Positions 1 through 56,584 of a DNA stretch of 64,000 bases are shown in pieces (position 1 is the stretch's first letter; every line of letters begins with the position of its first letter). Made by a program: the position numbers and the translations under genes. Source of the DNA: the human T2T-CHM13v2.0 reference genome, Homo sapiens; the NCBI RefSeq assembly GCF_009914755.1, contig NC_060937.1. One strand, 5' to 3'. The notes beneath the pieces were generated by a model that was given only the letters and a program-made list of their open reading frames with translations, was not told the DNA's origin and made no database searches.

Positions 1-250
1 CCTAGGACAATAAGACCTTCTTTGGAGTGGAATCTAGGTGGTGCATCTCTATGTCCACTATAGTCTACCCTCTGTGGTGTATCCATCACACAAGACCTTT
101 TATGCTGCTCAAATCCACTTCTTCATGTAATTCAAGCAGTAGCTCCTTCAGGACTCTGGTGGACCTGAACTTAGAAGAGGAAGTTTAGTAGGAAGAACTG
201 TATCCCCCAACAGTGCAGATGGTGTTGGGCTGGAATTGGTATTCATTGTC

Positions 251-673
251 TGTGTTAGTCCATTTTTGCATTGCTGTAAAGAAATATCTGAGGGTGGGTA
301 ACTTATGAAGAAAAGAGGTTTAATTTGCTCACAGTTCTGCAGGTTAGACAAGATGTGTGGTACTGGCATCTGCTTCTGATGAGGCCTCATGAAGCTTACA
401 ATCATGGCGGAAGGCAAAGGGGGAGCAGGTGCATCAAATGGCAAGAGCAGAAGCAAGAGAAAGAGATGGGGGAGGTGTCACATTTTTTTAAACAACCAGA
501 TCTCACATGAACTATCAGAGTGAGAACTCACTTGTTACTGTAGGGGCAGCACCAAGACATTCACAAGGGATCCACCACCATGACCCAAACACCTCCTACT
601 AAGCCTTATCTCCAGCACTGGGAATTACACTTCAACATGAGATTTGGAGGGGACACACATCCAAACCATATCA
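251..673 (-). mobile_element. MST-family (MSTB-like) ERVL-MaLR solo LTR
   Basis: Starts TGTGTTAGTCC and ends CCAAACCATATCA (reverse complement of MST termini); 5-bp TSD TTGTC at 246-250 and 674-678. Confidence 0.92.
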
Positions 674-919
674 TTGTCTCTTCAACCTCCACTTCCTACC
701 CCTACTCTCTATTCCAGATTTCCTTCAGTCTCAGCTTATCTTTATAGCTAATCCTGAGGGGTCTGAGATCCTAAATTCCTTGCTGTTTTCAAGCCCAGGT
801 TTCCATGCCTGTCACAATGTGGTCACAAAACGTTGGTCAACCCCAGGGAAACTTCTAAGCAAATAAGTCTTATCAGAGTTGCTGCAGTCAACTGATCAGA
901 GTTGCTGCAGTCACTCTGA

Positions 920-1631
920 GCCACTGCTCAGAGCCGATTTACTGAGACAGCAGAACTGCAATAGTAAAAGAGTTTAATAAATGCAGGGCCAGCTGAACAG
1001 AAGACCACAGTTTGTTATTCAAATCAATTTCCCCAGATTTGGAGATTGGGGCTTTTAAAGGATAATTTGGTGGGTGGGGAACCTACAGAATGGAGAATGC
1101 TGATTGATTGGGTCAGGGATAAATCACAGGGGGTCAAAGTGGGATCTTCCTTCTGTCTTCAGTTCCTGGGTGGGATTACAGGACTGGTGGAGCCAGTTTA
1201 TTGGTCGGGTGGCACCGGCTGGTCCAACAGAATGCAGGGTCTTAAGAATGTCTTGAACACCAACCTTAGGTTTTATCATAGTGATGTTATCCACAGGAGC
1301 AATTGCGGAGGTTACAAATCTTGTGGCCTCTGGCTGGATGACTCCTGAGCCATAATTTCTAATCTTGTGGTCAATTTATTGGTTTTACAAAGGCAGTTTT
1401 GGTCCCCAAACAAAGATGGGATTTGTTTTAGGAAGGGGCTGTTATTATCTTTGTTTAAAAGTTAAACTCTTAATTCTTCCTATAGTTAGTTTGGCCTATG
1501 CCTAGGAATGAGTAAGGGCCACTTGGAGGTTAGAAGCAAGATGAAATTGATTAGGTCAGATTTGTTTCACTGTCATAATTTTCCTATGTCAGATTTTTCT
1601 TACAGTCATAATTTTTGCAAAGGCAGTTTCA
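920..1631 (-). mobile_element. LTR8-family (ERV1) LTR, 3' terminus missing
   Basis: Right end TTTGCAAAGGCAGTTTCA is the reverse complement of the LTR8 start TGAAACCGCCTTTGCAAA; the left end stops at GAGCCGATTTA without the terminal GTTACA. Confidence 0.85.
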
Positions 1632-1738
1632 TTGCCTTCCAGGATGATCAGTTATTGTATGTGAACTGCCTCAGGAAGGGCGTGCTCTTGAGCAAGATGG
1701 CTCTTTGATATTGAGGGAAATCACAAAGGGACTGAGAG

Positions 1739-1993
1739 AGAGGATGAGACCAGAGGACTACTTGAGCCCAGGAGTTCGAGACCAGTCTGGGCAACATAGT
1801 GAGACCTCATCTGTATAAGAAATAAAAAAATTTGGCCAGGCGTGGTGGCACACGCCAGTAGTCTCATCTATTCAGGAAGCTGAGTGGGGAGGATCATTTG
1901 AGCTCAGAAGTTCAAGGCTGCAGTGAGCCGAGATCACGCCACTTCACTCCAGCCTGGATGACAGAGTGAGACCCTGTCTCAAAAAGAAAAATA
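1739..1993 (+). mobile_element. AluJ, 5'-truncated
   Basis: CTTGAGCCCAGGAGTTCGAGACCAG, J-type GTTCAAGGCTGCAGTGAGC, A-tail. Confidence 0.9.
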
Positions 1994-2019
1994 AGTTAAT
2001 AATAAAAGAGAAAATAGGA

Positions 2020-2190
2020 CATATTGAAACTTGTGGGAAACAGCTAAAGAGGCAAATGTATAGCTATAACTGCATATACTAGAAAGGAAAAAAGAATAAA
2101 ATTAATGATTTAAATATTCATCTCAACAAATTAGAAAAAAATTAGGAAAGTAAATCCAATTAAAATAGAAAAAATAGTAAATATAACAGA
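2020..2190 (+). mobile_element. Old L1 ORF2 fragment
   Basis: AACTTGTGGGAAACAGCTAAAG...CTCAACAAATTAGAAAAA resembles L1 ORF2 just after the endonuclease domain. Confidence 0.65.
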
Positions 2191-2194
2191 ATTT

Positions 2195-4160
<1,966 letters not shown>

Positions 4161-4944
4161 CAGACTAAGCTTGTGGAAGAATTGTTCTGCAATTCTGCAC
4201 TAACATCAGGAACAGGCAATCTTGTAGGCTTTCTTCAGTGAGAGAAAGGTACTCAGTTTCATGTTATACTCCCAGTGACTTTCACAACTCTTGATGCATG
4301 AAAGTGCTCGGAAATTTTTTCAACGAATAAAAATGTGCAAGAGAAGCATGACCTAACCCATATTCAGAAGCAGGTTTTGATCTGAAGAAACAGCCAAGGT
4401 TTAGTCAAGAATTCCTTAATGCTTAGTTTAATACCAAGATATTTCATAGAATCTTTCTTCACATCTTGAATTCTCTTATCCTTTTCTGCCCGAAAAATAT
4501 TTGAAATTCCTCAAATACAATTTATCCTTTAATCTTATATTGTATTAATAGTGCATTTGATGTTATAAGCTGGGAAATATATTGGGCATATTAGCATAAG
4601 GTGAGTTCTAGAAGACAGGCTCTGTCATATGTCTGCTACGTTCTTCAAGATATCTCAAGCAGTGCTAAACACATCGATGGTGTGTGACACTTCCTTTAAG
4701 ATATAATACAGTCAATATTGAAATTTTATATTCTAAGAGTGAAGGGCTAAAAATATGTATTTTATGCATATTTTAATAAAAATCATTTTGGTGTATTTAA
4801 AAAGTTTTAGGAAATAGGCTGCATACAAAGCATTGTTTTTTATGTTCATAAGTAAGCATCCAAATACACCATCAGTGTCATTCATGGCTGCCACCATGGC
4901 CTGGTGAGAGGGTGGCAAAATCATAGTGACAAAAAGCAAGAAGA

Positions 4945-5135
4945 GCTGTTTATTGCAAGCTTGATATGCACCCAATACCATGGTAATTATTTTATAGAGA
5001 TGGTCTCATTAGTCCTTATAATAACTCAATTCAGAGGTGCTATGGTAGTCCCAATTTTTAGATGAGGACACTGAAGCAGAGAAAGATTAAGTCACTATCC
5101 AAGGTTATAGAGCTAGGAAGAGGAGGAACTAGGTC
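4945..5135 (-). mobile_element. MIR
   Basis: MIR core CCCAATTTTTAGATGAGGACACTGAAGCAGAGAAAGATTAAGTCACTATCCAAGGT. Confidence 0.85.
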
Positions 5136-6419
5136 AGTGATTGTGGTAGGATGTGACCTAGGAAAATATGTTACTCTGTTCAACTCTCCATTTCAAATTC
5201 TCCAGTCAATCCCTGATCCTGGTAATGAAGGAGAAAGAGAGATGTATGACTCACTTGACTGCTTCATTGCCATTAGCATAGAAACACTGAAAGGGGTGGA
5301 GTGCTTATTTGAAAGTTTCCTTTCGCCTTAGGTGTATATAATTAAGCAGCGGTTGGTTTTTCCTACAGTAAGCATCAGTTGGCTGAACAATTTGTTTCTT
5401 TCATATTATGGTTTCCCTTCTTTCTTCATTTTCCACTGGAAAATTCTGTTAAACTCAAGAAATATGTAACCTAATGTTGAAAGTGTCAGAGAAGCACACT
5501 TAAAGTATTAAATGAGATAAAAGTGTTGTTCTATAGAAACAGACCAAAACATTAGGCTGTTATTTTTCCAAACCTTTAGTGGGGAAGAATAAGTGCTAAG
5601 TGGATATCCTCAAAGTCGAGAAAGTGACAAAGATTATTTTTTGGATGAACAAAGATATGTGAAAGTGCTAGAGAAGAGCAGTAAAAGTATTAAATGCAAA
5701 ACACTAAAAGTATTAAAATATTGTATAAGGAGTTGCAGAGAAGTGCTGTGACATGGATGAACCAAACTACAGGATGAAAGGCCAGGAGAGAGGGTTTCCT
5801 GAATGGATCTTTTGCTAATGGTGAAAACGGACTAGCATGTGTGCCCCATGCCAAGGAGAGAGAAGAAAGAAAAAGTAATGGTGGGATAATGTAATTTTTC
5901 TCTCATTAATATCTCTTTTGATCTGTAAATAATACATTCCTCCACATTCTATATTAAACCCAGAAATAAAATCACAATGTTAATTAAAGAGAAAGTGAGG
6001 AGAATAATTTCTAACATGTTGAAGGCACAGAATAAACTTTAGAGAATTATTAATATGTCATGAATTTTTCTCTCTTTCTACCAGAAGGCATCCCAAGAAT
6101 TATGTGTCCCAGACAAATGACTGTTTACGTTTCTGAGCCTTTATGTTAAAATCTGGTGATTGTGGAGCATAAAATATTTGAAATTGTTCAATCTGTGATG
6201 TTAAATATCTTAAGTATATAATTTATAAAATAAAATAAATCACTGAATCAAAAGAATCATTAAACATATAGAAAAATTATTTTAAAAATTTTGAATAAAT
6301 AAAATAATGTGTATAACTATAATAAATACTAGATCATATCCTAAAGGTGGCAAAATACCAAAAAAATTTTATATTAATACCAAATTTTTTATTTGACATA
6401 ATTGTTTCAATGATGAATA

Positions 6420-7170
<751 letters not shown>

Positions 7171-7532
7171 CATTCTCAAATATGCAGCGTTTCTAGACTC
7201 GTATGTATTCTGGTTGCCCTTTCAGAGGTGAATTTTAGTTTTTAGTTGTTTTATCCTAATGAACACAGTACTCTGGGATGTGTAAAAATGTTATATGCTT
7301 TGATTTTCAACATCACCTAAGATAGCGGCTGTTTCAGAGTTCACATCTTCACCATGGGTTATAGTTAAGAGTAGGTAAAAAGCTGTTCTGTGCCATTCTG
7401 GCCTCCTTATTTTGTGACACACAAGAAGTACAGCATGCTTTTAGGTCACCTAACACATTTTTGAATAAAATCTGAAACGATTTGAGTTGATACTTCTAAG
7501 ATTTAATAAAATTAAATATTTCATCAATATCA

Positions 7533-7757
7533 TCATTGTAATTGCCTGCTATGTTATAGTCACTGTGCTAAGTGCTTTACACACATTATGTCTGTTAATA
7601 CTCTCAATAATCCTGTAAGGTAGATATTTTTGTGTCCATGTTAGAGTGTGAATATTGATGCTGAGAGATTTAAGCAACTTACCCCAAATCTCAAAAGTGG
7701 TAGCAGAGTTGAACTTTTAAGTTCAATTCAAAATCTGCTTTTAATTACTATGCTGTA
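7533..7757 (-). mobile_element. MIR
   Basis: CACTGTGCTAAGTGCTTTAC...AATCCTGTAAGGTAGAT...GAGAGATTTAAGCAACTTACCC. Confidence 0.85.
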
Positions 7758-7809
7758 TTGATTCTAGCCCTCTGCTGCTGCTTCTAAAATTAACATTGAT
7801 TAAAAAAGA

Positions 7810-7894
7810 GTATATATATATATACACATATACCTATATATATATATACCTATATATATATACCTATATATATATACCTATATATATATATACC

Positions 7895-7926
<32 letters not shown>

Positions 7927-7932
7927 TATATA
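7810..7932. repeat. Compound (TA)n / (TATATATATACC)n / (CA)n microsatellite
   Basis: Directly visible. Confidence 0.97.
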
Positions 7933-8893
7933 CTGAATATATACATATGTTACTACTCTACTGTTTATACACACACAGTATATATCATCACAGTATAAAT
8001 TTTTTTCTGGGTATCTGAATTATTGTTAAAACTGTCTTTGAATATGTTTATAAGGCCATTTTATAAGTTTCAGAGATAAAATCTTTTAGATTTTCAGTTA
8101 TTACCCATGGATTTTTGGGCTTTGTGAAAATATATAGTACAGAAAATTTCTGCAGGTCCAGCAGAAATCAACTTTATGGGGATAGACTGGGTATAAAAAT
8201 TAATGGAGAGTATAAAGCCACTGCAGACTTCTTGGATTACTAGTAGATTCGAAAATGAACAAGTATTTGCATGAGCAGTAGTTTGACTGCTTATTATACT
8301 TTGCTCTTTTCTCTGGTCACATTACATGATGTAACCCGATGAATCAGAAATTGGATCTGCATGGGGGATGTGGGTGACCACAATTTCCTACTAGTCATTG
8401 CTTCTACAGACATTCCCAAATCCCCTGAAGTCATTTTGGAAATCAACCAAAGCTCCAGATTTGTTAGGGACATTTGCTAAAATGCTTACAGGTAGAGCAG
8501 ATAGTGCTGATCTGATGCCTGTTCCAGAAACATCTGTGCCTGACCTTCAAGTAATCTTTCTAGATTTAAGCCCTTTGTTTTATATAATCCTGCTCACTGT
8601 CTTCACCTCAAAAATGCACCATGTCCCCATTGTGTCAGTGTTTGTTTTCAGGAGTCTTTGTGTTCATCATAAATTCTGCTCTCTATGTCTCTAGTAACTG
8701 GTCTTCATCCACGTTTTCTGTTCTCTGCAGGCTTGTATTTATAAAACAGAACTGAACTAGCTGGTAGCATTTACTCTGGAATGAAGGATGGAACTGGTAA
8801 GTCCACTCTCCCCTACTCTTACAATGCACTGTAGTTCTTCTTAAAATTTTGGGTTTATTAGTTAGACCAGTTTTTGATTTAGCCCTAAAGAAA

Positions 8894-9162
8894 TTTGGGA
8901 GGCTGAGGCGAGTGGATCACGAGGTCAGGAGTTCAAGATCAGCTTGGCCAAAAAAGTGAAACTCTGTCTTCACTAAAAATAAAAAAATTAGCTGGGCATG
9001 GTGGCGGGTGCCTGTAATCCCAGCTACTCGGAAGACTGAGGCAGGGAATTGGTTGAACCTGGGAGGCAGAGGTTGCGGTGAGCCGAGATCGCACCACTGC
9101 ACTCCAGCCTGGGCAACAGAATGAGACTCTGTCTCAAAAAAAAAAAAAAAAAAAAAAAAAAA
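8894..9162 (+). mobile_element. AluS (Sg-like), 5'-truncated, long pure A-tail
   Basis: GGATCACGAGGTCAGGAGTTC...; A run at 9136-9162. Confidence 0.92.
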
Positions 9163-13534: not shown

Positions 13535-15451
13535 GGGGGCCTCAGTTCAAATTCCAAGACAATAGCATAAGTCCCTTTGAATTACCTATTACACAAATTA
13601 AGATCAAATTTGATTAATTCTGAAAATTTTTAATACCTCTCAGGAGATGTTTCTTGTAACATCTAGTCACACACACACATACACACACACATGTTTAAAG
13701 AGAGAGAACCCTCCAGTCCCCTGCAATAAGTCACAACAGATTACAAGATGAACATTAAATATTAGGGAAAAACAGAAATAGGCAAATATTAGAAGAGAAG
13801 CTAAAAAAAAGGATTTTTACAAATTTGGAACCTTTCCCTGGTGGCAATTGGCTGTAGCCATAGAAAATAATAGACTGTTGCTCTACACATTATCAGAAAG
13901 TCCTTACCCCGAAATGTTACCAATCTAAGAGGATTTATAAAGTTAAATGTTGGTAATAACTGTACAAGATTACAGAAAAAGAGAGATGTTATAATAGTAA
14001 CTATAAGCAGACGGGATATGACCCTTGTGTATAAAAAGAACGTAAAGTAAAAATATATCATTGTAACTTCAGTATTACACAAGGAGGAGATAACTTGACC
14101 CACTGACATGAGGATCCTGTTTGGGTTGATATTTATACTCTTTTGAATGAGAAAAGGGAGAATCAAAAGATTACTATAGCTTGAGAAAAATATTCACTTG
14201 TTTGCCCTGAGTTGGTTATCATTAAGCAGAAGTCTGATTATGCATTAGATTTCCCAAATAACTTCATTTTAAGAAGAAGAAAGTTTGATTATCTGACTGA
14301 CACATATGGCTAGTCCAGTGGCTATCAACATTGCTTAAGTTATCACGAACCCATTTCTATGAGCCTAGTTTCCTTTATGTGAATTTGATATCTGGACCTG
14401 TGTGCCCTTGGAATATAGAGAAGATAGCTAACCTGAAAGACCATGCCAGCCTTGCATGAAACGTTAACTCAGCCATCTTGGAGATGACCAGCCTTGCACC
14501 AAGAAGGACCAGACTGCAGCTGTATCTTGAGGGGAGAGGCAACCCAGTCACCTAAAGACACCCCTTTGAACCAAGAGAGTTTCCTGATTGAATGGAGCTA
14601 CAGAATGATGCTTTCCTGCTGGGCTGTCTGGTGCTTCCTTCAGTTCACTTCCACTGATCTCCGAAGGTACAGGACAAGCTGTGGGGAAGCACCCAGGTGC
14701 ATGATTCTGGCTTTCAAAAAAGTTGGAACAAATCTAATTGCCTCTCAGCACAATTTAAATTCTAAGCCTGCAGGGTAGGCTCCTATCCATCTTTTTTGTT
14801 TGGCACATTGGGAGTATTCCACTAGGAATGCAATAGGAAGCACTTTATTCCACACACAGGTGTCTTGGTAGATGTAGGGGAAACATTAACATTTCTGTAG
14901 GACTAGTTAAAACTTGCTTTCCGAAATGAAATTCCACAGCAGCTTAGTCTCCCTTATGAACAAACCAACCACATGACTGCCAGAAATCAATGCACATTGA
15001 TTCTATCCAAATGTTTTCAGTGAGTCAGCGCTAGAATTCTTGCCAGTAGGTTTGTTGTGTTTTTTGGATAGCTTCTTATGCATTACCAAGAGTTCCAGTG
15101 TGGGTAATATATTTTATTTAATATTTCTCCTCTCAATGAAAAATAAAGCAAATATTTATATGGTTTTACCTAAATTTGACTTTCCACTAGCAAATCAGTG
15201 CTATAGCTTGTCTTTTATTGGTGAAAATTGACCTTTTAATTTTGCCAATACCACTATTTTTTTTGTCTGTCGAGTTTCTTACCTATCCAAAAGCATCTTC
15301 GAAGAAAACGTATTCATAATGTTGAAAATAAAAATTGGAATTTGTTGTCTACTTTACTGAGTTTTAGTAAAAGCTCAATTTCTCACATTGCCTGTTATAG
15401 CCTTTTATGGTAACAAACTCATGATGAAAACTTCCCCAGGAAAAACAACCT

Positions 15452-15836
15452 GGGAGAGGGTGCCAAGATGGCTGACTAGATGCAGCCAGAAAGAGACTCT
15501 CCCAGCAAGAGACCAGACTGTCAAAAAGACTGACACACTACTCTGAGCAGATCTTCAGGAGGAAGGCATTGAGAGTGGTCAAAGGGAGGATGCAGACCCC
15601 GGGCTGAAAGAGAGAGGAAACTAGCAACCCTGCATAGGACTGCTATGCATCAGGACTTGTACTTGACCCCCAGCGGCTCCAGGGGAAGGGGTGAGTTAGA
15701 TAGGTGAGAAGTGGCCCACTTTTATCATAGACCACCAGAATCCTAGCATCAGGAATGCCATGTCCCCCACAGACATTTGAGCTGACAGAGAGAGCTACTG
15801 GGAGAGGTGGCAGGGACAGGATTCCAGCCTGATTCC
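15452..15836 (+). mobile_element. L1PA15/16-type LINE-1, 5' end of the 5'UTR (segment A, sense)
   Basis: GGGAGAGGGTGCCAAGATGGCTGACTAGATGCAGC is a typical old L1PA 5' terminus. Confidence 0.85.
15464..15472 (+). promoter_or_regulatory. YY1 motif of the L1 internal promoter
   Basis: CAAGATGGC about 13 nt into the L1, the known position of the L1 YY1 site; activity not shown. Confidence 0.6.
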
Positions 15837-16580
15837 AGTTTTAGTTTCATCAGTCTTTTGGATGGTTTATTGCATCTCAATTTCCTTCAGTTCAGCTCTG
15901 ATTTTGGTTATCTCTTTTCTTCTGCTAGCTTTGGGATTTGTTTGCTCTTCGTTTTCTACTTCCTCTCAGTGTGATGTTAGGTTGTTAATTTGAGATCTGT
16001 CTTATTTTTTGATGTGGGCATTTAGCAATATAAACTTTCCTCTTAAAACTGTTTTAGCATGTCCCAGAGATGCTGGCATGTTCTGTCTTTGTTTTCGTAG
16101 TTCCAAAGAATTTCTTGATTTCTACCTTAATACACTGTTTACCCAAAAGTCATTCAAGAGCAGATTGTTTAATTTCCATGTAATCGTGTGGTTTTGAGAA
16201 ATCTTCTTAGTATTGATTTCTATTTTTATTGGTGCTATGGTCCAAGAGTGTGGTTGGTATGATTTCTGTTTTTTGAATTTGTTGAGAATTGTTTTATGAC
16301 CAATTGTGTGGTCTATTTCAGAGTATGTGCCATGTGCATATGAGAAGAATGTATATTCTGTTGTCGTTGGGTGGAGTGTTCTATAGATGTCTGTTAAGTC
16401 CATTTGGTCAAATGTTAACTTTAGGTCCCAGATATCTTTGTTAATTTTCTGTCTCAATGATCTGTCTAGTACACACTCAATGGCGTGTTGAAGAATCCCA
16501 CTATTATTTTGGGGGTTACCTAAGCCCTTTTGTAGGGCTCTCACAACTTGTTTTATGAATCTGAGTGTTCCTGTGTTGGG
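15837..16580 (-). repeat. 744-bp inverted repeat, left arm (100% identical to 19134-19877)
   Basis: Compared base by base with the reverse complement of 19134-19877 and found no mismatch; ORF 16009-16197(+) and ORF 19517-19705(-) give identical peptides. Confidence 0.97.
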
Positions 16581-19133
16581 TGTATATATATTTAGGATGG
16601 TTAAGTCTTCTTGTTGAATTGAATCCTTTATCATGTAATGGTGTTCTTTGTCTTTTTTGATACTTGTTTTAAAGTCTGTTTTGTCTGAAATTAAGACAGC
16701 AACCTCTGCCCTTTTTGTTTTCTCTTGGCTTAGATTTTTCTCCTTCCCTTTACTTTGAGCCTATGGGCATCATTTCATGTGAGATGGCTCTCTTGAAGAC
16801 AATATACAATTGGGTCTTGCTTCCCTATCCAACTTACCACTCTTTGCCTTTTAAGTGGGACATTTAGCCCATTTGCATTCACTGTTAATATTGATATGTA
16901 CAGATTTGGTTCTGTCATCGTGTTGTTAGCTAGTTATTATACAGACTTAATTGTGTAGTTGCTTTATAGTGTGAGTGGTCTGTGTACTTAAGTATGTTTT
17001 TGTGGTGACCAGTAACAGTATTTAATTTCCATGCTTAGCACCCTCTTGAAGACCTCTTTTAAGGTGGGTATGGTGGTAATGAATTCCCTTAGCATCTTCT
17101 TGTCTGAAAAGGATCTTATTTCTCCTTTGCTTATGAAGCTTAGTTTGGCTGGATATAAAATTATTAATTGGAATTTATTTTCTTTAAGAATTTTTAATAT
17201 AGGCCCATTCATCTTTTCTGGCTTGTAGGGTTCCTGTTGAGAGGTACGCTATTAGGTGTCTTTATTTTTTTTTTTCTTTCTCATTGACCTTGGAGAACCT
17301 GATAACTATGTGTCTTGGGATGGTTGTCTTGTATAGTATCTCACAGGGGTTCTCTGCATTTCTTGAATTTGAATCTCAATCTCTCTAGCAAGGTTAGGGA
17401 AAGTTTCATGGACAATATCCTCAAATATGTTTTTCAAGTTGCTTGCCCTTTCTCTCTCTCTTTCAGGGATGCCAATGAGCCATAGGTTTAGTCCCTATAT
17501 ATAATGACTTGTTTCTCGGAGGTTTTGTTCATTCTTTTGTATTCTCTTTTCTTTAGTTTTGCCTGACTGAACTGATTCTAAGAACAAGTCTTTGAGCTCT
17601 GAGATTATTTCCTCATCTTGGTCTATTTTGCTGTTAATACTTCTGATTGTGCTATGAAATTCTTATACTGTATTTTTCATCTCTATCAGTTTGGTTTGGT
17701 TCCCTCTTAAAATGACAATTGTGTCTTTCAGCTTTCGTATCATTTATTGGAATCCTTAAATTTTTTTTTGGATTGGGTTTTTACTTTCTCCTGAATCTTG
17801 ATAATCTTCATTCCTATCCAGATTCTGTATTCTATGTCTGTCGTTTAAGCCATTTCAGCCAGTTGAGAACCATTGCCAGGGAGTTAGTGTAGTCATTCGG
17901 AGGTAAGAAGACACTCTGGCTTTTTGAATTGCACTAGTTCTTTTTCATATGTGTGGGCTGATATCCCTTTATTGTTTGAAGTTGCTGTCCTTTGGATGGG
18001 TGTTTTGGGGTTTTGGGGTTTGGGGTTTTTTTTTTGTCTTTATATTCTTTGATGTCCTTAAGTGTTTGACTATGGTATAAAGTGGGTTCTGTCAACTGAC
18101 TTCATTTCTGGAAGATTCTAGGGGTCTGAGACTCAGTTTAGCACTCCTGAGCTTCATGCTTTAACCCTGCAGGGCAGGTACCAAACACAGGGCTTTGTTC
18201 TCTGGCCCCTCGAGGGTAAGCACCTGCTGTGCTGAAAGAGTGAATGCGTTCCTGGTCTGCTGACAATAACACTCAGTGGAGGATGCCAGCTAAAATGTTT
18301 CACTGGGGTGGTGGCAGCAGGGCCTGCACTCACATGTGCATGCCAGCAGCAGTGGCTTGTGGTGCGGGCATGCATTGGTGGAAGCAGAGCACTGGTGGGG
18401 ATAGGGTAGTAACATCCCTGTGGAGGCAAGGTGGTGTCTAGCCAAATGTGTTGACAGCAGAGGCTGTGCGGCAGGGCACACTCACATCAGGGGCAGGGTG
18501 CCAGCAAGGCAGGTTGGTGGCATCTGCACAGGGGCAGGATAGCAGCGTAGGTGTGCATGTATCGTCGGTGCATGGCAAGGTGCATACACTTATGCTGACA
18601 GCAGCTGGGTGGTGGGGCGCACATATGTGTGCCAGCAGGGGAAGGCAGTGAAGACCACTCACTCATGAGCACTGGCAAAGCAGTGGTGGGGGCACAGTGA
18701 ATGAGTGTATGGCAGTAAAGCAGTGGGGAGAGGGGCTGCAGGTGAGTGTACCTCAGCAAAGCAGTTGGGGAAGGCTGTAGGTGGGGAGGCTTCAGGGGGG
18801 TGGGTGCCTGTCAGTGGGGGCTTGTTTGCTGGAACCCCGCAATGGTCAGGTGCAGTCTGCCACCAAAGGAGCTATGGTGGCCGCTGCTAGAAGTACCATA
18901 GTTGGCCATTCCAGGCTGCACTGCTAGTGGGTGCAGCCAGGCAGCCACCTTGAGAGAAGCCGACAGAAAGGGAAGCACTCAGATCAGACCGGCCCCATTC
19001 CACAGGCAAGACCACCATGCTGTGTCTAGGTTTGACAGTCAACAAGGGCCCAAGCCACCTAGAGGAACTGTGTGAGCCTTGGGGGATGGGCATCCCTGAC
19101 TGTGCCCTACTGCAGTCGTTCTTGTGCTAAACC
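15837..19133 (-). mobile_element. Inverted internal block of the same L1: rest of the 5'UTR, degenerate ORF1 and start of ORF2
   Basis: Minus-strand ORFs 16122-16634 (IQQEDLTILNIYTPNTG, endonuclease) and 16988-17212 (ILYPAKLSFISKGEIRSFSDK, ORF1 C-terminus); GC-rich 5'UTR at about 18130-19133. Confidence 0.93.
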
Positions 19134-19877
19134 CCCAACACAGGAACACTCAGATTCATAAAACAAGTTGTGAGAGCCCTACAAAAGGGCTTAGGTAACC
19201 CCCAAAATAATAGTGGGATTCTTCAACACGCCATTGAGTGTGTACTAGACAGATCATTGAGACAGAAAATTAACAAAGATATCTGGGACCTAAAGTTAAC
19301 ATTTGACCAAATGGACTTAACAGACATCTATAGAACACTCCACCCAACGACAACAGAATATACATTCTTCTCATATGCACATGGCACATACTCTGAAATA
19401 GACCACACAATTGGTCATAAAACAATTCTCAACAAATTCAAAAAACAGAAATCATACCAACCACACTCTTGGACCATAGCACCAATAAAAATAGAAATCA
19501 ATACTAAGAAGATTTCTCAAAACCACACGATTACATGGAAATTAAACAATCTGCTCTTGAATGACTTTTGGGTAAACAGTGTATTAAGGTAGAAATCAAG
19601 AAATTCTTTGGAACTACGAAAACAAAGACAGAACATGCCAGCATCTCTGGGACATGCTAAAACAGTTTTAAGAGGAAAGTTTATATTGCTAAATGCCCAC
19701 ATCAAAAAATAAGACAGATCTCAAATTAACAACCTAACATCACACTGAGAGGAAGTAGAAAACGAAGAGCAAACAAATCCCAAAGCTAGCAGAAGAAAAG
19801 AGATAACCAAAATCAGAGCTGAACTGAAGGAAATTGAGATGCAATAAACCATCCAAAAGACTGATGAAACTAAAACT
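19134..19877 (+). repeat. 744-bp inverted repeat, right arm
   Basis: CCCAACACAGGAACACTC...GAAACTAAAACT; exact reverse complement of 15837-16580. Confidence 0.97.
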
Positions 19878-22790
19878 TTGTTTTTTGAAAGAATAAATAC
19901 GACTGATAGACTTCTAGCTAGAGTAATAAAGAAAAAAGGAGAAAAGATCCAAATAAATATAATTAGAAATGACAAAGGGAACACTACCATTGGCACCCCA
20001 CAGAAACACAAAAAAACCCTTAGTGACTATTATGAACACCTCTATGCACACAAACTAGAAAACCTTAAAGAAATAAATTCCTGAAAACATATGAACTCCC
20101 AAGATTGAGCCAGGAAGAAATGAAAACCCTGAACAGACCAATAATGAGTTTTAAAATTGAATCAATAATAAAAAGTCTACAACCCAAAAAGATTCCTGGA
20201 CCAGTTGGATTCACAGATGGATTCACCCAGACATGTAAAGAAGAGCTTAGTACCAATCCTACTGAAACTATTTCGAAAATTTGTGGAGGGGAGAACTCCT
20301 CCTTAACTTATTCTATAAGGCCAGCATCATTCTATTACCAACAACCAAAAAAAAATTTTGGGGCAATATCTCTGGTGAACACAGATGCAAAAATCCTCAA
20401 CAAGATACTAGAAAACCAAATCCAGCAACACACTGACAAGCTAATCCACCATGATTAAGTAGTGTTTATTCCTGGAATGCAAGGTTGTTTCAATATACAC
20501 AATTAAATCAGTGTGATTCATCACATAAACAAGAACCATATGATTATCTCAATAGATGCAGAAGGGGCTTTTGATAAAAGTCAACATACCTTCATGTTGA
20601 AAACTCTAGACAAAGTAGGAATTGAGGGAACATATTTCAAAATAATAAGAGCCATCTATGAAAAACCCACAGCTGATATCATAACAAATGGGCAAAAGCT
20701 GGAAGCATTTCCTTTGAGAACTGGAACAAGACAAGGATTCCCACTGTCACCACTCCTAGTCAACACAGTACTGGGAGCACTTGCAGAGCAATGAGGCAAG
20801 AGAAAGAAATAAAAGGCATCCAAATAGGAAGTGAGGAAGTCAAGCTATCACTGTAGACAATATGATTTTATGCCTAGAAAACTGCATTGTGTCTACCCGA
20901 AAGCTCCTAGGTTTGATAAACAACTTCGGTATCAATGTACAAAAATCAGAAGCATTTCTACACTAACAACATCCTAGCTGAGAGCCAAATCAAAAATCAA
21001 TCCCATTCACAATTAGCTGGAAAAAGAATAAAATAGCTAGGAATAGAACTAACGAGAGAGGTGAAAGATCTCTACAATAAGAATTACAAAACACTGCTGA
21101 AAGAAATCACAGACAATACAAAGAAATGGAAAAAAATTCCATGCTCATGGATACGAATAATCACATTGTTAAAATGGTCATACTGCCCAAAGCAATGTAT
21201 AGATTCAATGCTATTCCTAGCAAATCATCAATGACATTTTTCACAGAATTAGAGAAAGCTATTTTAAAATTCATATTGAAACAAAAAAGAGCCTGAAGAA
21301 CAAAGTCAATCCTAAGCAAAAAACAAAATTGGAGACATCACATTACTCAACTTCAAACCATACTACAAGACTGCAATAACCAAAACAGCATAGCTCTGGT
21401 ACAAAAACAGACACATAAAACAATGGGATAAAAATAGAGATCCTAGAAATAAAAGCTCCATACTACATCCAACTGATACTTGACAAAGTCAACAAAACCA
21501 AGCAATGGGGAATGGAGTTTCTATTCAAGGAATGGTGCTGGGATAACTGGTTAGCCACATGCAGAAGGTTGAAACTGGACACCTTCTTTTTACCGTTCAC
21601 AAAAATCAATTCAATATGGATTAAAGACTTAAATGTGAAGCCTAAAACTAGAAAAATCCTAAAAGAAAATGGAAATACCATTATGGACATAGTCCCTGTC
21701 AAAGATTTTATGGCGAAGACTATAAAAGCAATTGCAACAAAAACAAAAATTGTCAATGAGATCTAGTTAAACTGAAAAGCCTCTGCATAGCAAAATAAAC
21801 TGTCAGTAAAGAGACAACCTACGGAATGGAAGAAAATATTTGCAAACTATGTATCTGACAAAGTTCTAATATCCAGAGTCATAAGAAACTTAAATCAACA
21901 AGCAAAAAACAACCCCACTGAAAACAGGGCAAAGGACATGAACAGACACTTCTCAAAAGAAGACATACATACAACCAACAAGCATATGAAAAAATGTTCA
22001 ACATGATTGATCATTAGAGAAATGCAAGTCAAAACTACCTGAGATACCATCTCATGCCAGTAAGAATGGCTATTAATAAAAAGTAAAAAAATAAAAGATG
22101 CTGGTAAGGTTGTGGAGAAGAGGGAATGCTTATACTTTGCTGGTAGGAATGTAAATTAATTCAGCTACTGTGGAAAGCTGTTTGAAGATTTCTTATAGAA
22201 TTTAAAATGGAGCTGCCATTCGGCCCAGAGCTACCATTCAGCTCAGCAATCTCATACTGGGTATATACCCAAAGGAGTGTAATTCATTCAATCATAAAGG
22301 CACATGCATGTACATATTCACTGCAGAACTATTCACAATAGCAAAGACATGGAATCAATCCAGATGCCCATCAATGGTGGACTGGATAAAGAAAACGTGG
22401 GTACATATACACCATGGAATACTATACAGCAATAAAAAAGAATGAGATCATGTCTTGTGCAGCAAGTTGGTTGGAGCTGGAGGCCATTATCCTAGGTGAA
22501 TTAATGCAGTTATGGAAAACCAACTACTTCACGTTCTCACTTATAAGTGGGAGCTAATCATTGAGTACCCAAGGACACAAAGAAAGGAAGGATAGACACC
22601 AGAGCCTACTTGAGAGTGGAGAGAGGGAGAAGGGTCGAGATAAAAGAAGTACTTCTCAGGTACTATGCTTATTGCCTGGGTGATGAAATAATCTGTGCAT
22701 TAAACCCCCGTGGCATGCAATTTACCCATATAACAAACAGACACATGTATCCCTGGAACCTAAAGTAAAAGTTGGAAGAAAAGTAAAAAA
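19134..22790 (+). mobile_element. L1PA15/16-type ORF2 (degenerate) and 3'UTR
   Basis: RT-domain peptides [48 protein letters not shown] with many stops and frameshifts; 3'UTR ending ACCTAAAGTAAAAGTTGGAAGAAAA. Confidence 0.93.
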
Positions 22791-22791
22791 C

Positions 22792-23218
<427 letters not shown>

Positions 23219-23574
23219 TCATTACTTAACTTACATATTTGTAGGACAACTTCACCTTCTCTCCTCCACATCTCTGATATATCTTCTTTTCAATATCAGA
23301 CATCATTTCCCTACTTTTTATGCACACTATCAGGTACTCAGACAATGGCTTTAAACCTTATTTTATTTCCTTTTGTTCCCAATCATATGGACAGTTAATT
23401 TTCCTTGATGTAGTATTTTGGTTACAAAAGAATGTGATAATATGCCTTCTAGAAAGTGCATATTAGAAAGAAGCACTGTCATATTTTTCCAGTTGTACCA
23501 AGGAGTGGGTTTTAAGGTTTCAGTAGAGAATCTTGTGATATTGTTTCTTTATAATAATGATCATAGCAATGGCA

Positions 23575-23700
23575 ACTTATTGAGTATTTACTTGGTGTTA
23601 GATACAAAACAAAGTGTATTATTTAAATGATCATATTCAATCTTTACTGCTGCTCATGAGTGAATATTGTTTCCAAGCTAAGATAAAGTAACTGGAGACC
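23575..23700 (-). mobile_element. MIR fragment
   Basis: AACTTATTGAGTATTTACTTGGTGTTAGATAC...ATTCAATCTTTAC. Confidence 0.6.
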
Positions 23701-24006
23701 ACGAATGGTCTGGCCAAGATGGCCTTAGCATTTTCCTTAATTGACTTAATTTAACAGGCTTCTTTGTAACTCAGGCCCCTGATGTCCTTTTTCCTTAGAA
23801 CATTTTCTTGAGAAAACTTGTTATTGTCAATTCTTTCTTTGTCTATTTGAGATATACATCTTTTTAAAAGCTTCTTGCCAATTTTACAACTCAGGAATGT
23901 CTCTCTCAAGGTCCTGGAAGACATGTCTTTGAAATGTCATCAGCAGGAAAAATAGAGCCCCTCTGTGCCAGTCTCTGTGGGAGGGCAGGAGTCTAACTTG
24001 GTGGGC
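23700..24006 (+). mobile_element. ERV1 LTR fragment (MER67/MER31 group)
   Basis: ACAGGCTTCTT...GGCCCCTGA...CAGGAATGTCTCTCTCAAGG...TTTGAAATGT...GTCTCTGTGGGAGGGCAGGAGTCTAACTT. Confidence 0.65.

Positions 24007-24478: not shown

Positions 24479-24809
<331 letters not shown>

Positions 24810-25570: not shown

Positions 25571-25940
<370 letters not shown>

Positions 25941-26479: not shown

Positions 26480-27420
<941 letters not shown>

Positions 27421-55710: not shown

Positions 55711-56078
<368 letters not shown>

Positions 56079-56175: not shown

Positions 56176-56584
<409 letters not shown>

What the first reader, a model, noticed from the sequence alone, without database searches (positions are those of the whole stretch)
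15452..22790. Old L1 rearranged into a duplication-inversion with a perfect 744-bp inverted repeat
Seen: the colinear L1 order A-B-C-D appears as A(+, 15452-15836), C'(-, 15837-16580), B'(-, 16581-19133), C(+, 19134-19877), D(+, to 22790). The two C copies match at all 744 bp, including frameshifts and stops, although the element is heavily decayed. Established: twin priming inverts the 5' end at insertion; it does not leave the 5' terminus in sense, and copies made at insertion would have diverged since. Inference: a recent post-insertion event (replication template switching, FoSTeS/MMBIR type), or an older duplication kept identical by gene conversion or recurrent inversion.
Basis: partly seen in the sequence, partly recalled or inferred. 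Interest (0 to 1): 0.85.

Follow-up and report, generated by a model that had tools for sequence, protein, structure and literature searches.

The report
Young inverted duplication inside old L1
A long-dead L1 retrotransposon on human chromosome 13 was later rearranged, so that 3.3 kb now lies flipped with a perfect 744-base inverted copy at one edge; the structure is real, but it belongs to the commonest known class of small inversion-type variants in human genomes.

Summary
Window 15837-16580 is the exact reverse complement of 19134-19877, 744 of 744 bases.

Only two junctions are non-native, 15836|15837 and 19133|19134. Both are unique among the matches scored in the T2T genome.

In 7 of 7 relatives the end of A and the start of B lie about 14 nt apart, so a contiguous full-length L1 was rearranged after it inserted. 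At the first breakpoint about 13 nt were lost and 5 nt gained. The gained bases look copied from 11 nt upstream. The second junction shares 1 nt.

The arms' best other matches in the genome are 79-84% identical, so the duplication is far younger than the L1. Without gene conversion, zero differences imply under about 4 Myr.

The structure fits the "inverted duplication" class, which 1000 Genomes papers report as the most common inversion-type variant (<1 kb copy within 5 kb). Here the spacer is also inverted. The mechanism is probably replicative template switching. No other human or ape genome could be examined, so polymorphism and date remain open. Interest is low.

The parts
15452..15836 (+). 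Segment A: the 5' terminus of the L1 (start of the 5'UTR), in sense orientation. Homology to other copies ends at about 15831.
   Evidence: 40 of 40 scored genomic matches (620 candidates) cover query positions about 1-13 to about 361-381 of 385, at 74-79% identity apart from the self match. The colinear relative maps 15463-15830 (+).
15820..15838 (+). Breakpoint 1 micro-structure. The 8-mer GATTCCAG occurs at 15820-15827 and again at 15831-15838. The 5 nt at 15832-15836 (ATTCC) replace about 13-14 nt present in other copies. The last 2 nt of the second 8-mer (AG) are also the first 2 nt of arm C'.
   Evidence: 7/7 relatives carry a stretch of about 14 nt (TGTGGAGCCCAGAG-like) between the end of the A homologue and the start of the B homologue. 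The 8-mer occurs only 3 times on both strands of the 64-kb window, two of them 11 nt apart here; about 0.003 is expected within +-50 nt.
15837..16580 (-). Arm C': the inverted copy of the ORF2 stretch C. On the minus strand it continues natively from B'.
   Evidence: 744/744 reverse-complement identity to 19134-19877. A single alignment of the colinear relative runs 18273->15836 across 16580/16581.
16581..19133 (-). Segment B' (2553 nt), the spacer between the arms: the rest of the 5'UTR, ORF1 and the start of ORF2, inverted.
   Evidence: Pfam finds L1 ORF1 domains on the minus strand: Tnp_22_trimer in 17498-17662, Transposase_22 in 17309-17494, Tnp_22_dsRBD in 16991-17248. Relatives map 19134->16812 on the minus strand. 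GC is 0.51 and CpG o/e 0.18 in the 5'UTR part.
19133..19134 (.). Breakpoint 2: the start of B (inverted) joined to the start of C (sense). One nucleotide (19134) could come from either side.
   Evidence: Alignments of relatives to B' run up to 19134, one base into the arm. 6 of 7 relatives have GGG before TTT at the start of B, while the window has GG plus the arm's first base. No other place among the 40 scored matches spans this junction.
19134..19877 (+). Arm C: the sense copy of the ORF2 stretch, with 248 codons in one frame and 4 stops. It continues natively into D.
   Evidence: Translation. A single alignment of the colinear relative runs 19146-22782 across 19877/19878.
19878..22790 (+). 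Segment D: the rest of ORF2 (including the reverse transcriptase), the 3'UTR and a decayed A-rich tail.
   Evidence: Pfam RVT_1 in 20507-20791, E 3.8e-12. The relative aligns to 22782. The A-rich end is seen.

Best explanation
A full-length L1 inserted tens of millions of years ago and decayed in place. Much later, probably within the last few million years on the human lineage, a single DNA-level error of replication or repair synthesis rearranged its interior.

The proposed sequence of events is as follows. A growing 3' end stalled or broke at the A|B boundary in the 5'UTR and slipped back 11 nt, copying ATTCC. It then switched, on 2 nt of microhomology, to the opposite strand at the C|D boundary and copied backwards. 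It finally rejoined on 1 nt of microhomology. The result is A-C'-B'-C-D: a 3297-nt inverted block whose last 744 nt are also retained in sense.

There are two routes to this product. Either the switched synthesis ran all the way back through B to the broken end (one step), or only C' was copied (an ordinary 'inverted duplication', A-C'-B-C-D) and the 2553-nt spacer was later flipped by recombination between the two perfect arms (two steps). Both routes give the same two novel junction sequences, so this window cannot tell them apart.

The arms are identical simply because too little time has passed for a difference to arise.

Shown here: the structure, the two junctions, the loss and gain of bases, and the age contrast. 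Inferred: the polymerase-switching mechanism, the date and the lineage.
For: 1. The arms are identical, 744/744, with sharp edges.
2. A colinear relative shows that every L1 part is present once except C, and that only 15836|15837 and 19133|19134 are non-native.
3. The end of A and the start of B are about 14 nt apart in 7/7 relatives, so the L1 was once contiguous and the break is internal.
4. The junctions show no long homology. There is 1 nt at 19134, and 2 nt (AG) plus a 5-nt insertion that repeats sequence 11 nt upstream as part of an 8-mer, with about 0.003 expected by chance. These are the junction features reported for this class: most inverted duplications show 1-15 bp microhomology, 'suggesting a replicative formation origin' (PMC12350158, section 20 passage).
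5. [quoted passage not shown] Inverted duplications were also the most common class (277 of 733 non-MEI inversions) in 1,019 long-read genomes (PMC12350158 section 18).
6. Age contrast: the arm's best other matches in the genome are 79-84% identical and segment A's are 74-79%. CpG o/e is 0.07-0.21 across the element.
7. Zero differences in 744 bp give a 50% bound of 0.9 Myr and a 95% bound of 4.0 Myr at 0.5e-9 per site per year. The rate is recalled, not taken from a call.
8. Both junctions are single-copy among the scored matches in the genome, so this is not a copy of a rearrangement made elsewhere.
Against: - No second human haplotype and no ape genome could be examined, so the date rests only on the absence of differences and on an assumed mutation rate.
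- Gene conversion between close inverted repeats would produce the same identity.
- The simple form of the 1000 Genomes 'inverted duplication' keeps the spacer in reference orientation. Here the spacer is inverted, so either a longer switched synthesis (3.3 kb) or a second event is needed.
- The ancestral bases at the A|B boundary of this particular copy are inferred from diverged relatives (about 77% identity), so the '13 nt lost, 5 nt gained' count is approximate.
- A staggered-break and fill-in route gives the same gross product.
- No target-site duplication could be found to prove independently that A and D belong to one insertion: the best local alignment score of 13 was reached by 264/500 shuffles.
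Confidence: 0.62

Rival explanations
1. Same post-insertion inversion with duplication, but made by breakage and joining rather than by polymerase switching. There was one break at A|B and a pair of single-strand (or sister-chromatid) breaks staggered by 744 nt on either side of C. The overhangs were filled in and the B-C fragment was rejoined in reverse by non-homologous end joining.
For: The product is exactly what the staggered-break model predicts when only one of the two breakpoints is staggered. In Drosophila, 17/29 fixed inversions carry inverted duplications at their breakpoints. In 12 of these only one breakpoint region is duplicated, with sizes of 46 bp to about 1.9 kb and a median of 321 bp (PMC1885836, abstract and section 10 passages). 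Small loss and near-blunt joins are compatible with end joining.
Against: The authors of that model themselves note the difficulty of unwinding long stretches between staggered nicks (PMC1885836 section 7 passage). The 5-nt insertion that copies sequence 11 nt upstream points to polymerase slippage. Human population studies attribute this class to replicative processes. The window alone cannot exclude this model.
Confidence: 0.15
2. The duplication is old, predating the human-chimpanzee split. The two arms have been kept identical by arm-to-arm gene conversion, possibly with repeated flipping of the spacer, as in larger genomic palindromes.
For: The arms are close (2553 nt apart) and inverted, an arrangement in which intrachromosomal exchange is known to occur. 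Inversions between inverted repeats recur often in humans and apes (PMC6748972 section 8 passages; PMC3961182 title and abstract). Identity alone cannot separate youth from conversion.
Against: - Identity is perfect to the last base at both edges of both arms, whereas conversion tracts would not be expected to reach every edge every time (inference).
- Arm GC (0.359) equals that of the neighbouring L1 parts (0.353 and 0.359), so there is no sign of GC-biased conversion.
- The arms are short (744 bp). The shortest repeat pair I saw in the table of validated repeat-mediated inversions was 1.6 kb (PMC3961182 table passage, seen only in part).
- The 1000 Genomes authors found no intermediates supporting recurrent rearrangement for this class (PMC4617611 section 9).
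Confidence: 0.12
3. Assembly artefact: the real CHM13 sequence is a colinear L1 and the inverted block arose from mis-joined reads.
For: Perfect identity of the arms is also what an artefact would give. No reads could be inspected here.
Against: The structure is 4041 nt from arm edge to arm edge, far shorter than the long reads used for this assembly (recalled, not from a call). The junctions carry a small deletion and a templated insertion, which read mis-joining would not create. All L1 parts are accounted for exactly once except C.
Confidence: 0.03
4. The structure was made at insertion: twin priming with a 744-nt overlap at the inversion junction (or two independent L1 insertions in opposite orientation), with the arms later homogenised.
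For: The right-hand part (C'B' inverted, then C-D in sense with an A-rich tail) has the layout of a 5'-inverted L1. In twin priming one target end primes at the poly(A) and the other internally (PMC2912911 section 3 passage).
Against: - In twin priming the inverted piece is primed from the target DNA end and so abuts the flank. Here 385 nt of the sense 5' terminus lie between flank and inverted piece, and this piece joins on to the start of B within about 14 nt in L1 coordinates.
- Arms made at insertion should now differ by the order of 100 or more positions, given 79-84% identity to the nearest relatives. They differ at none.
- Independent insertions would not complement each other base for base.
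Confidence: 0.02

Closest known systems
'Inverted Dup' class of human structural variants (1000 Genomes phase 3, PMC4617611; 1,019 long-read genomes, PMC12350158)
   Same: A copy shorter than 1 kb (744 bp) is placed in inverted orientation within 5 kb (2553 nt) of its source. The junctions have 1-2 nt of microhomology and no long homology. It is not linked to retrotransposition of the duplicated piece. A replicative origin is proposed.
   Different: In the simple form the sequence between the copies keeps its orientation; here it is inverted. 744 bp is above the reported median of 284 bp.
Inversions with inverted duplications at the breakpoints (staggered-break model; Drosophila, PMC1885836)
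   Same: An inverted segment is bounded by an inverted duplication of sequence that was single-copy before. The duplication is at one breakpoint only, as in 12 of the 17 Drosophila cases. The size lies within their range of 46 bp to 1.9 kb.
   Different: Those are megabase-scale fixed inversions between species, with duplicates about 88% identical. This one is 3.3 kb, lies inside one repeat element, has identical arms, and carries a templated insertion at the other breakpoint.
Twin-priming 5'-inverted L1 insertions
   Same: An inverted 5' part is followed by a sense 3' part of the same L1.
   Different: Here the extreme 5' end lies in sense upstream of the inverted part, the overlap is 744 nt, and the arms are far younger than the element.
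Recurrent inversions mediated by inverted repeats (NAHR; PMC3961182, PMC6748972)
   Same: The locus now has the substrate: two perfect inverted repeats around a short spacer, which could flip.
   Different: The repeats did not pre-exist as independent copies. They were created by the rearrangement itself. No evidence of flipping is available from one haplotype.

Membership tests
LINE-1 (L1) retrotransposon, old full-length copy | 5' terminus, ORF1 domains, reverse transcriptase and an A-rich 3' end, colinear with other copies | tested here: met
   Pfam finds Tnp_22_trimer, Transposase_22, Tnp_22_dsRBD and RVT_1. The parts map onto a colinear relative, positions 191-6444. The A-rich end is seen. 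The endonuclease domain was not detected by Pfam in the 212-aa piece 16125-16760. The subfamily was not determined because no repeat library was on hand.
LINE-1 (L1) retrotransposon, old full-length copy | Target-site duplication flanking the element | tested here: not met
   The best local alignment of the 42 nt spanning the 5' end (15412-15453) against the 111 nt after the Alu tail scores 13, and 264/500 shuffles reach it. This is expected for an old element whose tail was hit by an Alu.
Human 'inverted duplication' SV class | Duplicated stretch <1 kb, in inverted orientation, within 5 kb of the other copy | tested here: met
   744 nt, with 2553 nt between the copies. The definition is from PMC4617611 section 9.
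Human 'inverted duplication' SV class | Junctions with microhomology of 1-15 bp or blunt, and no long homology | tested here: met
   1 nt at 19134. 2 nt (AG) plus a 5-nt templated insertion at 15832-15838. The class feature is from PMC12350158 section 20.
Human 'inverted duplication' SV class | Sequence between source and copy keeps its original orientation | tested here: not met
   The spacer B is on the minus strand relative to A and D. The simple form would need a later flip of the spacer.
Human 'inverted duplication' SV class | Seen as a variant: an allele without the duplication exists in humans or close relatives | not testable with these tools
   Only the T2T-CHM13 genome is held.
Inversion with breakpoint inverted duplication (staggered-break type) | Inverted segment bounded by an inverted duplication of formerly single-copy breakpoint sequence, with no pre-existing inverted repeat | tested here: met
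   C is single in the colinear relative. Arm C' is native to B' and arm C is native to D.
Twin-priming 5'-inverted L1 | The inverted 5' segment directly abuts target DNA | tested here: not met
   385 nt of the sense L1 5' terminus lie between the flank and the inverted block. The model is as described in PMC2912911 section 3.
Twin-priming 5'-inverted L1 | All parts are of the same age as the insertion | tested here: not met
   The arms show 0 differences in 744, against 79-84% identity to the nearest other copies.
NAHR inversion between pre-existing inverted repeats | The breakpoints fall inside two independent homologous copies | tested here: not met
   The breakpoints lie at the arm edges, next to unrelated sequence, with 1-2 nt of microhomology. 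The arms are products of the event, not its cause.

The most novel reading that the evidence does not exclude
The locus is an autosomal mini-palindrome that predates the human-chimpanzee split. Its 744-bp arms have been held identical by arm-to-arm gene conversion, and its 2.5-kb spacer toggles by recombination, so both spacer orientations segregate in people. That would show concerted evolution with arms an order of magnitude shorter than those usually discussed.
Probability: 0.08. Interest if true: 0.45.

Novelty: new member of a known kind. Interest (0 to 1): 0.18.

Why it matters
It matters little in itself.

No gene or RefSeq functional element lies at the site. According to the hub's annotation, the nearest annotated exon (an lncRNA) is about 40 kb away. 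The host is a dead repeat.

Its limited value is threefold:
- It is a cleanly resolved example of the commonest inversion-type variant class. Because the host is an L1 with thousands of relatives, the pre-event sequence can be inferred and both junctions read to the base: about 13 nt lost, 5 nt templated from 11 nt upstream, 1-2 nt of microhomology.
- It now forms a perfect 744-bp inverted repeat around a 2.5-kb spacer. This is a possible substrate for recurrent flipping and a small test case for how short such repeats can be.
- It may be a human-lineage or population marker.

It also warns that perfect identity over about 0.7 kb only dates an event to within a few million years.

Tried and rejected
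- Target-site duplication: searched for and not found, no better than shuffles.
I repeated it with 15 stop-free pieces chosen from the 76 listed. ORF1 and RT domains were found and the endonuclease domain was not. A weak AAA_assoc_C hit (E 0.009, below the cut-off) is taken as chance.
- CpG island idea: I checked whether the GC-rich 18000-19133 stretch is a CpG island that might give the inverted 5'UTR a function. CpG o/e is 0.12-0.25, so it is not.
- Duplicated locus: I checked whether the rearranged locus is itself duplicated elsewhere. No other place among the 40 scored matches spans either junction (142 and 473 candidates).
- InvFEST-type catalogues: the chr13 inversions named in PMC3961182 (HsInv0340, HsInv0341) lie at 63 and 79 Mb in that paper's coordinates, not here. 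'chr13' does not occur in the main text of PMC6748972.
These include PMC4617611 Supplementary Table 15 and the tables of PMC6748972 and PMC12350158.
- Two literature calls failed on term format. One was repeated in corrected form and the other was replaced.
- Rejected readings: chance, two independent L1 insertions, and simple twin priming. The reasons are given under rivals.
- L1 subfamily naming and a divergence-from-consensus age were not attempted. No repeat library was on hand and I built no consensus.
Full report
**Observation**

The window holds one long inverted repeat in 14000-24000. The repeat finder gives arms 15837-16586 and 19128-19877, 750 nt, '100%'. A base-by-base check shows that the exact part is 15837-16580 against 19134-19877, 744 of 744. 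The first mismatches going inward are at 16581/19133 and 16584/19130. Going outward, 51 of 59 positions mismatch.

Chance cannot produce this. The window also offers a natural control: the 12 other inverted pairs of at least 100 nt within 10 kb are 78-89% complementary. From and from the sequence I take these to be mostly Alu pairs.

**Anatomy**

Segment A (15452-15836) matches the 5' ends of many other elements in the same genome. Forty of 40 scored matches (620 candidates) cover query positions about 1-13 to about 361-381, at 74-79% identity apart from the self match.

A colinear full-length relative (G000 C5:158853000-158861800, reverse-complemented, L011) maps onto the window in three blocks:
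- relative 191-554 to window 15463-15830 (+)
- relative 605-853 and 1104-3505 to window 19097->15836 (-)
- relative 2790-6444 to window 19146-22782 (+)

Every part of an L1 is therefore present once, except relative positions about 2790-3505, which are present twice, once on each strand.

The alignments run unbroken across 16580/16581 on the minus strand and across 19877/19878 on the plus strand, so those two joins are native L1 sequence. The only non-native joins are 15836|15837 and 19133|19134.

Pfam places the three ORF1 domains on the minus strand between 17662 and 16991, and reverse transcriptase on the plus strand at 20507-20791.

Segment C reads in one frame with 4 stops, and I saw no frameshift inside it. 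The element as a whole is badly decayed:
- one frame of 19134-22790 has 69 stops
- the longest open stretch is 212 aa
- CpG o/e is 0.07-0.21

**The breakpoints**

In 7 of 7 relatives examined, the homologue of the end of A is followed by about 14 nt (TGTGGAGCCCAGAG-like) and then by the homologue of the start of B. A and B were therefore neighbours in a contiguous L1, and the rearrangement is internal to one element.

At the first junction the window has 5 nt (ATTCC, 15832-15836) in place of those roughly 14 nt. Together with the flanking G and AG they form the 8-mer GATTCCAG. This 8-mer also lies 11 nt upstream at 15820 and occurs only once more on both strands of the 64-kb window; about 0.003 is expected within +-50 nt. 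Its last two bases are also the first two bases of arm C'.

At the second junction one base (19134) can be assigned to either side.

Both junction sequences are unique. Among the 40 scored matches for each 120-nt probe, only the locus itself spans the junction, and all others cover one half only.

**Age contrast**

The arm's best matches elsewhere in the genome are 79-84% identical (38 non-self matches among 40 scored, of 9974 candidates). If the two copies had separated when the L1 inserted, they should now differ at the order of a hundred or more positions (inference). They differ at none.

Zero differences in 744 bp is a weak clock, however. At 0.5e-9 substitutions per site per year (recalled value) the 50% bound is 0.9 Myr and the 95% bound is 4.0 Myr. 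Without gene conversion the event is therefore probably specific to the human lineage, but need not be very recent.

**Mechanism**

Twin priming is excluded as the sole cause. In that model the inverted piece is primed from the target DNA end (PMC2912911, section 3 passages). Here the sense 5' terminus lies between the flank and the inverted piece, and it continues into the start of B in L1 coordinates. Two independent insertions are excluded by the identity and by the exact complementarity of the parts.

What remains is a DNA-level event after insertion. Three routes give the observed product.

1. Serial template switching in one step. Synthesis stops at A|B, slips back 11 nt, switches to the other strand at the C|D boundary and copies back through C and B to the broken end. 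It then switches to the start of C and goes on.
2. A two-step route. The same first switch copies only C' and then returns to B, giving the ordinary inverted duplication A-C'-B-C-D. The spacer is later flipped by recombination between the perfect arms.
3. One clean break plus one break staggered by 744 nt, followed by fill-in and end joining. This is the model proposed for Drosophila inversions, where 17 of 29 carry breakpoint inverted duplications, 12 of them at one breakpoint only, with sizes from 46 bp to 1.9 kb (PMC1885836, abstract and sections 7 and 10 passages).

Routes 1 and 2 yield identical junction sequences, so they cannot be separated with one haplotype. I favour the polymerase-switching family over route 3 for three reasons:
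- the insertion at the first junction is templated
- junction homology is minimal
- human surveys attribute this class to replicative processes (PMC4617611 section 9; PMC12350158 sections 18 and 20)

A further variant has been proposed for L1-induced breaks: a resected 3' end that folds back on itself and primes synthesis (bioRxiv 10.1101/2024.12.14.628481, section 9 passages). It would give the same A-C'-B-C-D intermediate.

**Comparison with what is known**

In 1000 Genomes phase 3, 54% of 229 validated 'inversion' sites were inverted duplications. [quoted passage not shown]

In 1,019 long-read genomes, inverted duplications were again the most common class (277 of 733 non-MEI inversions, median 284 bp). 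Most had 1-15 bp of microhomology (PMC12350158, section 18 read in full, section 20 passage).

The present structure meets the size, spacing and junction criteria. It differs in having the spacer inverted, so I file it as a member of the wider known kind (inversion or inverted duplication by a non-homologous, probably replicative mechanism), not as the simple form.

Whether this locus is already listed in those call sets, in InvFEST, or among CHM13-versus-GRCh38 differences could not be checked. The chr13 inversions named in PMC3961182 lie elsewhere.

**Rivals and what stays open**

- An old duplication kept identical by gene conversion cannot be excluded. Against it stand identity right up to all four arm edges, no GC enrichment of the arms (0.359 against 0.353 and 0.359 in neighbouring L1 parts), and short arms.
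- An assembly artefact is unlikely, given the templated insertion and small deletion at the junctions, but reads were not available.
- No target-site duplication was detectable.
- The L1 subfamily was not named.

**Verdict**

The finding is an ordinary example of a well-described and very common class of small structural change, in a gene-poor stretch and inside a dead repeat. Interest is low. The most novel reading still open is a conversion-maintained, toggling mini-palindrome, and it has a low probability.

Noticed in passing
window 22794-23108: An Alu sits in the A-rich tail of the L1. It keeps 17 CpGs (o/e 0.75), against 0.07-0.21 in the L1, so it looks much younger than its host. It matches Alus in other loci at 81-86%. 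The subfamily was not determined.
   Followed up: partly
window 55815-56015 and 56229-56429; also 24489-24761 / 25641-25938 / 26679-26976: Closely spaced inverted repeat pairs lie 213 nt apart (86% complementary) and 740-890 nt apart (83%). They are presumably Alu pairs. Such close inverted Alus are regarded as unstable (recalled). Here they served only as a control for independent insertions.
   Followed up: no
L010 (G000:C1:157432100-157441100): This relative of the L1 family has its own complex layout. ORF2 sequence appears in both orientations (relative 3450-5671 against window 21338->19134, and relative 7047-8952 against window 19423-21295) at 73-80% identity to the window, with two Alus between. 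It may be nested or inverted L1 insertions.
   Followed up: no
window 18273-18842 versus L011rc 853-1104: The 5'UTR part of this L1 is about 320 nt longer than the matching gap in the colinear relative (570 nt against 251 nt unaligned). This could be an insertion here, a deletion there, or a subfamily difference.
   Followed up: no
window 16102-16300 and 19414-19612: The two stretches that NCBI's file masks inside the arms are exact mirror images of each other (their coordinates sum to 35714, as do the arms'). Only 199 nt of each 744-nt L1-derived arm is masked there, so that masking misses most of this old L1.
   Followed up: partly
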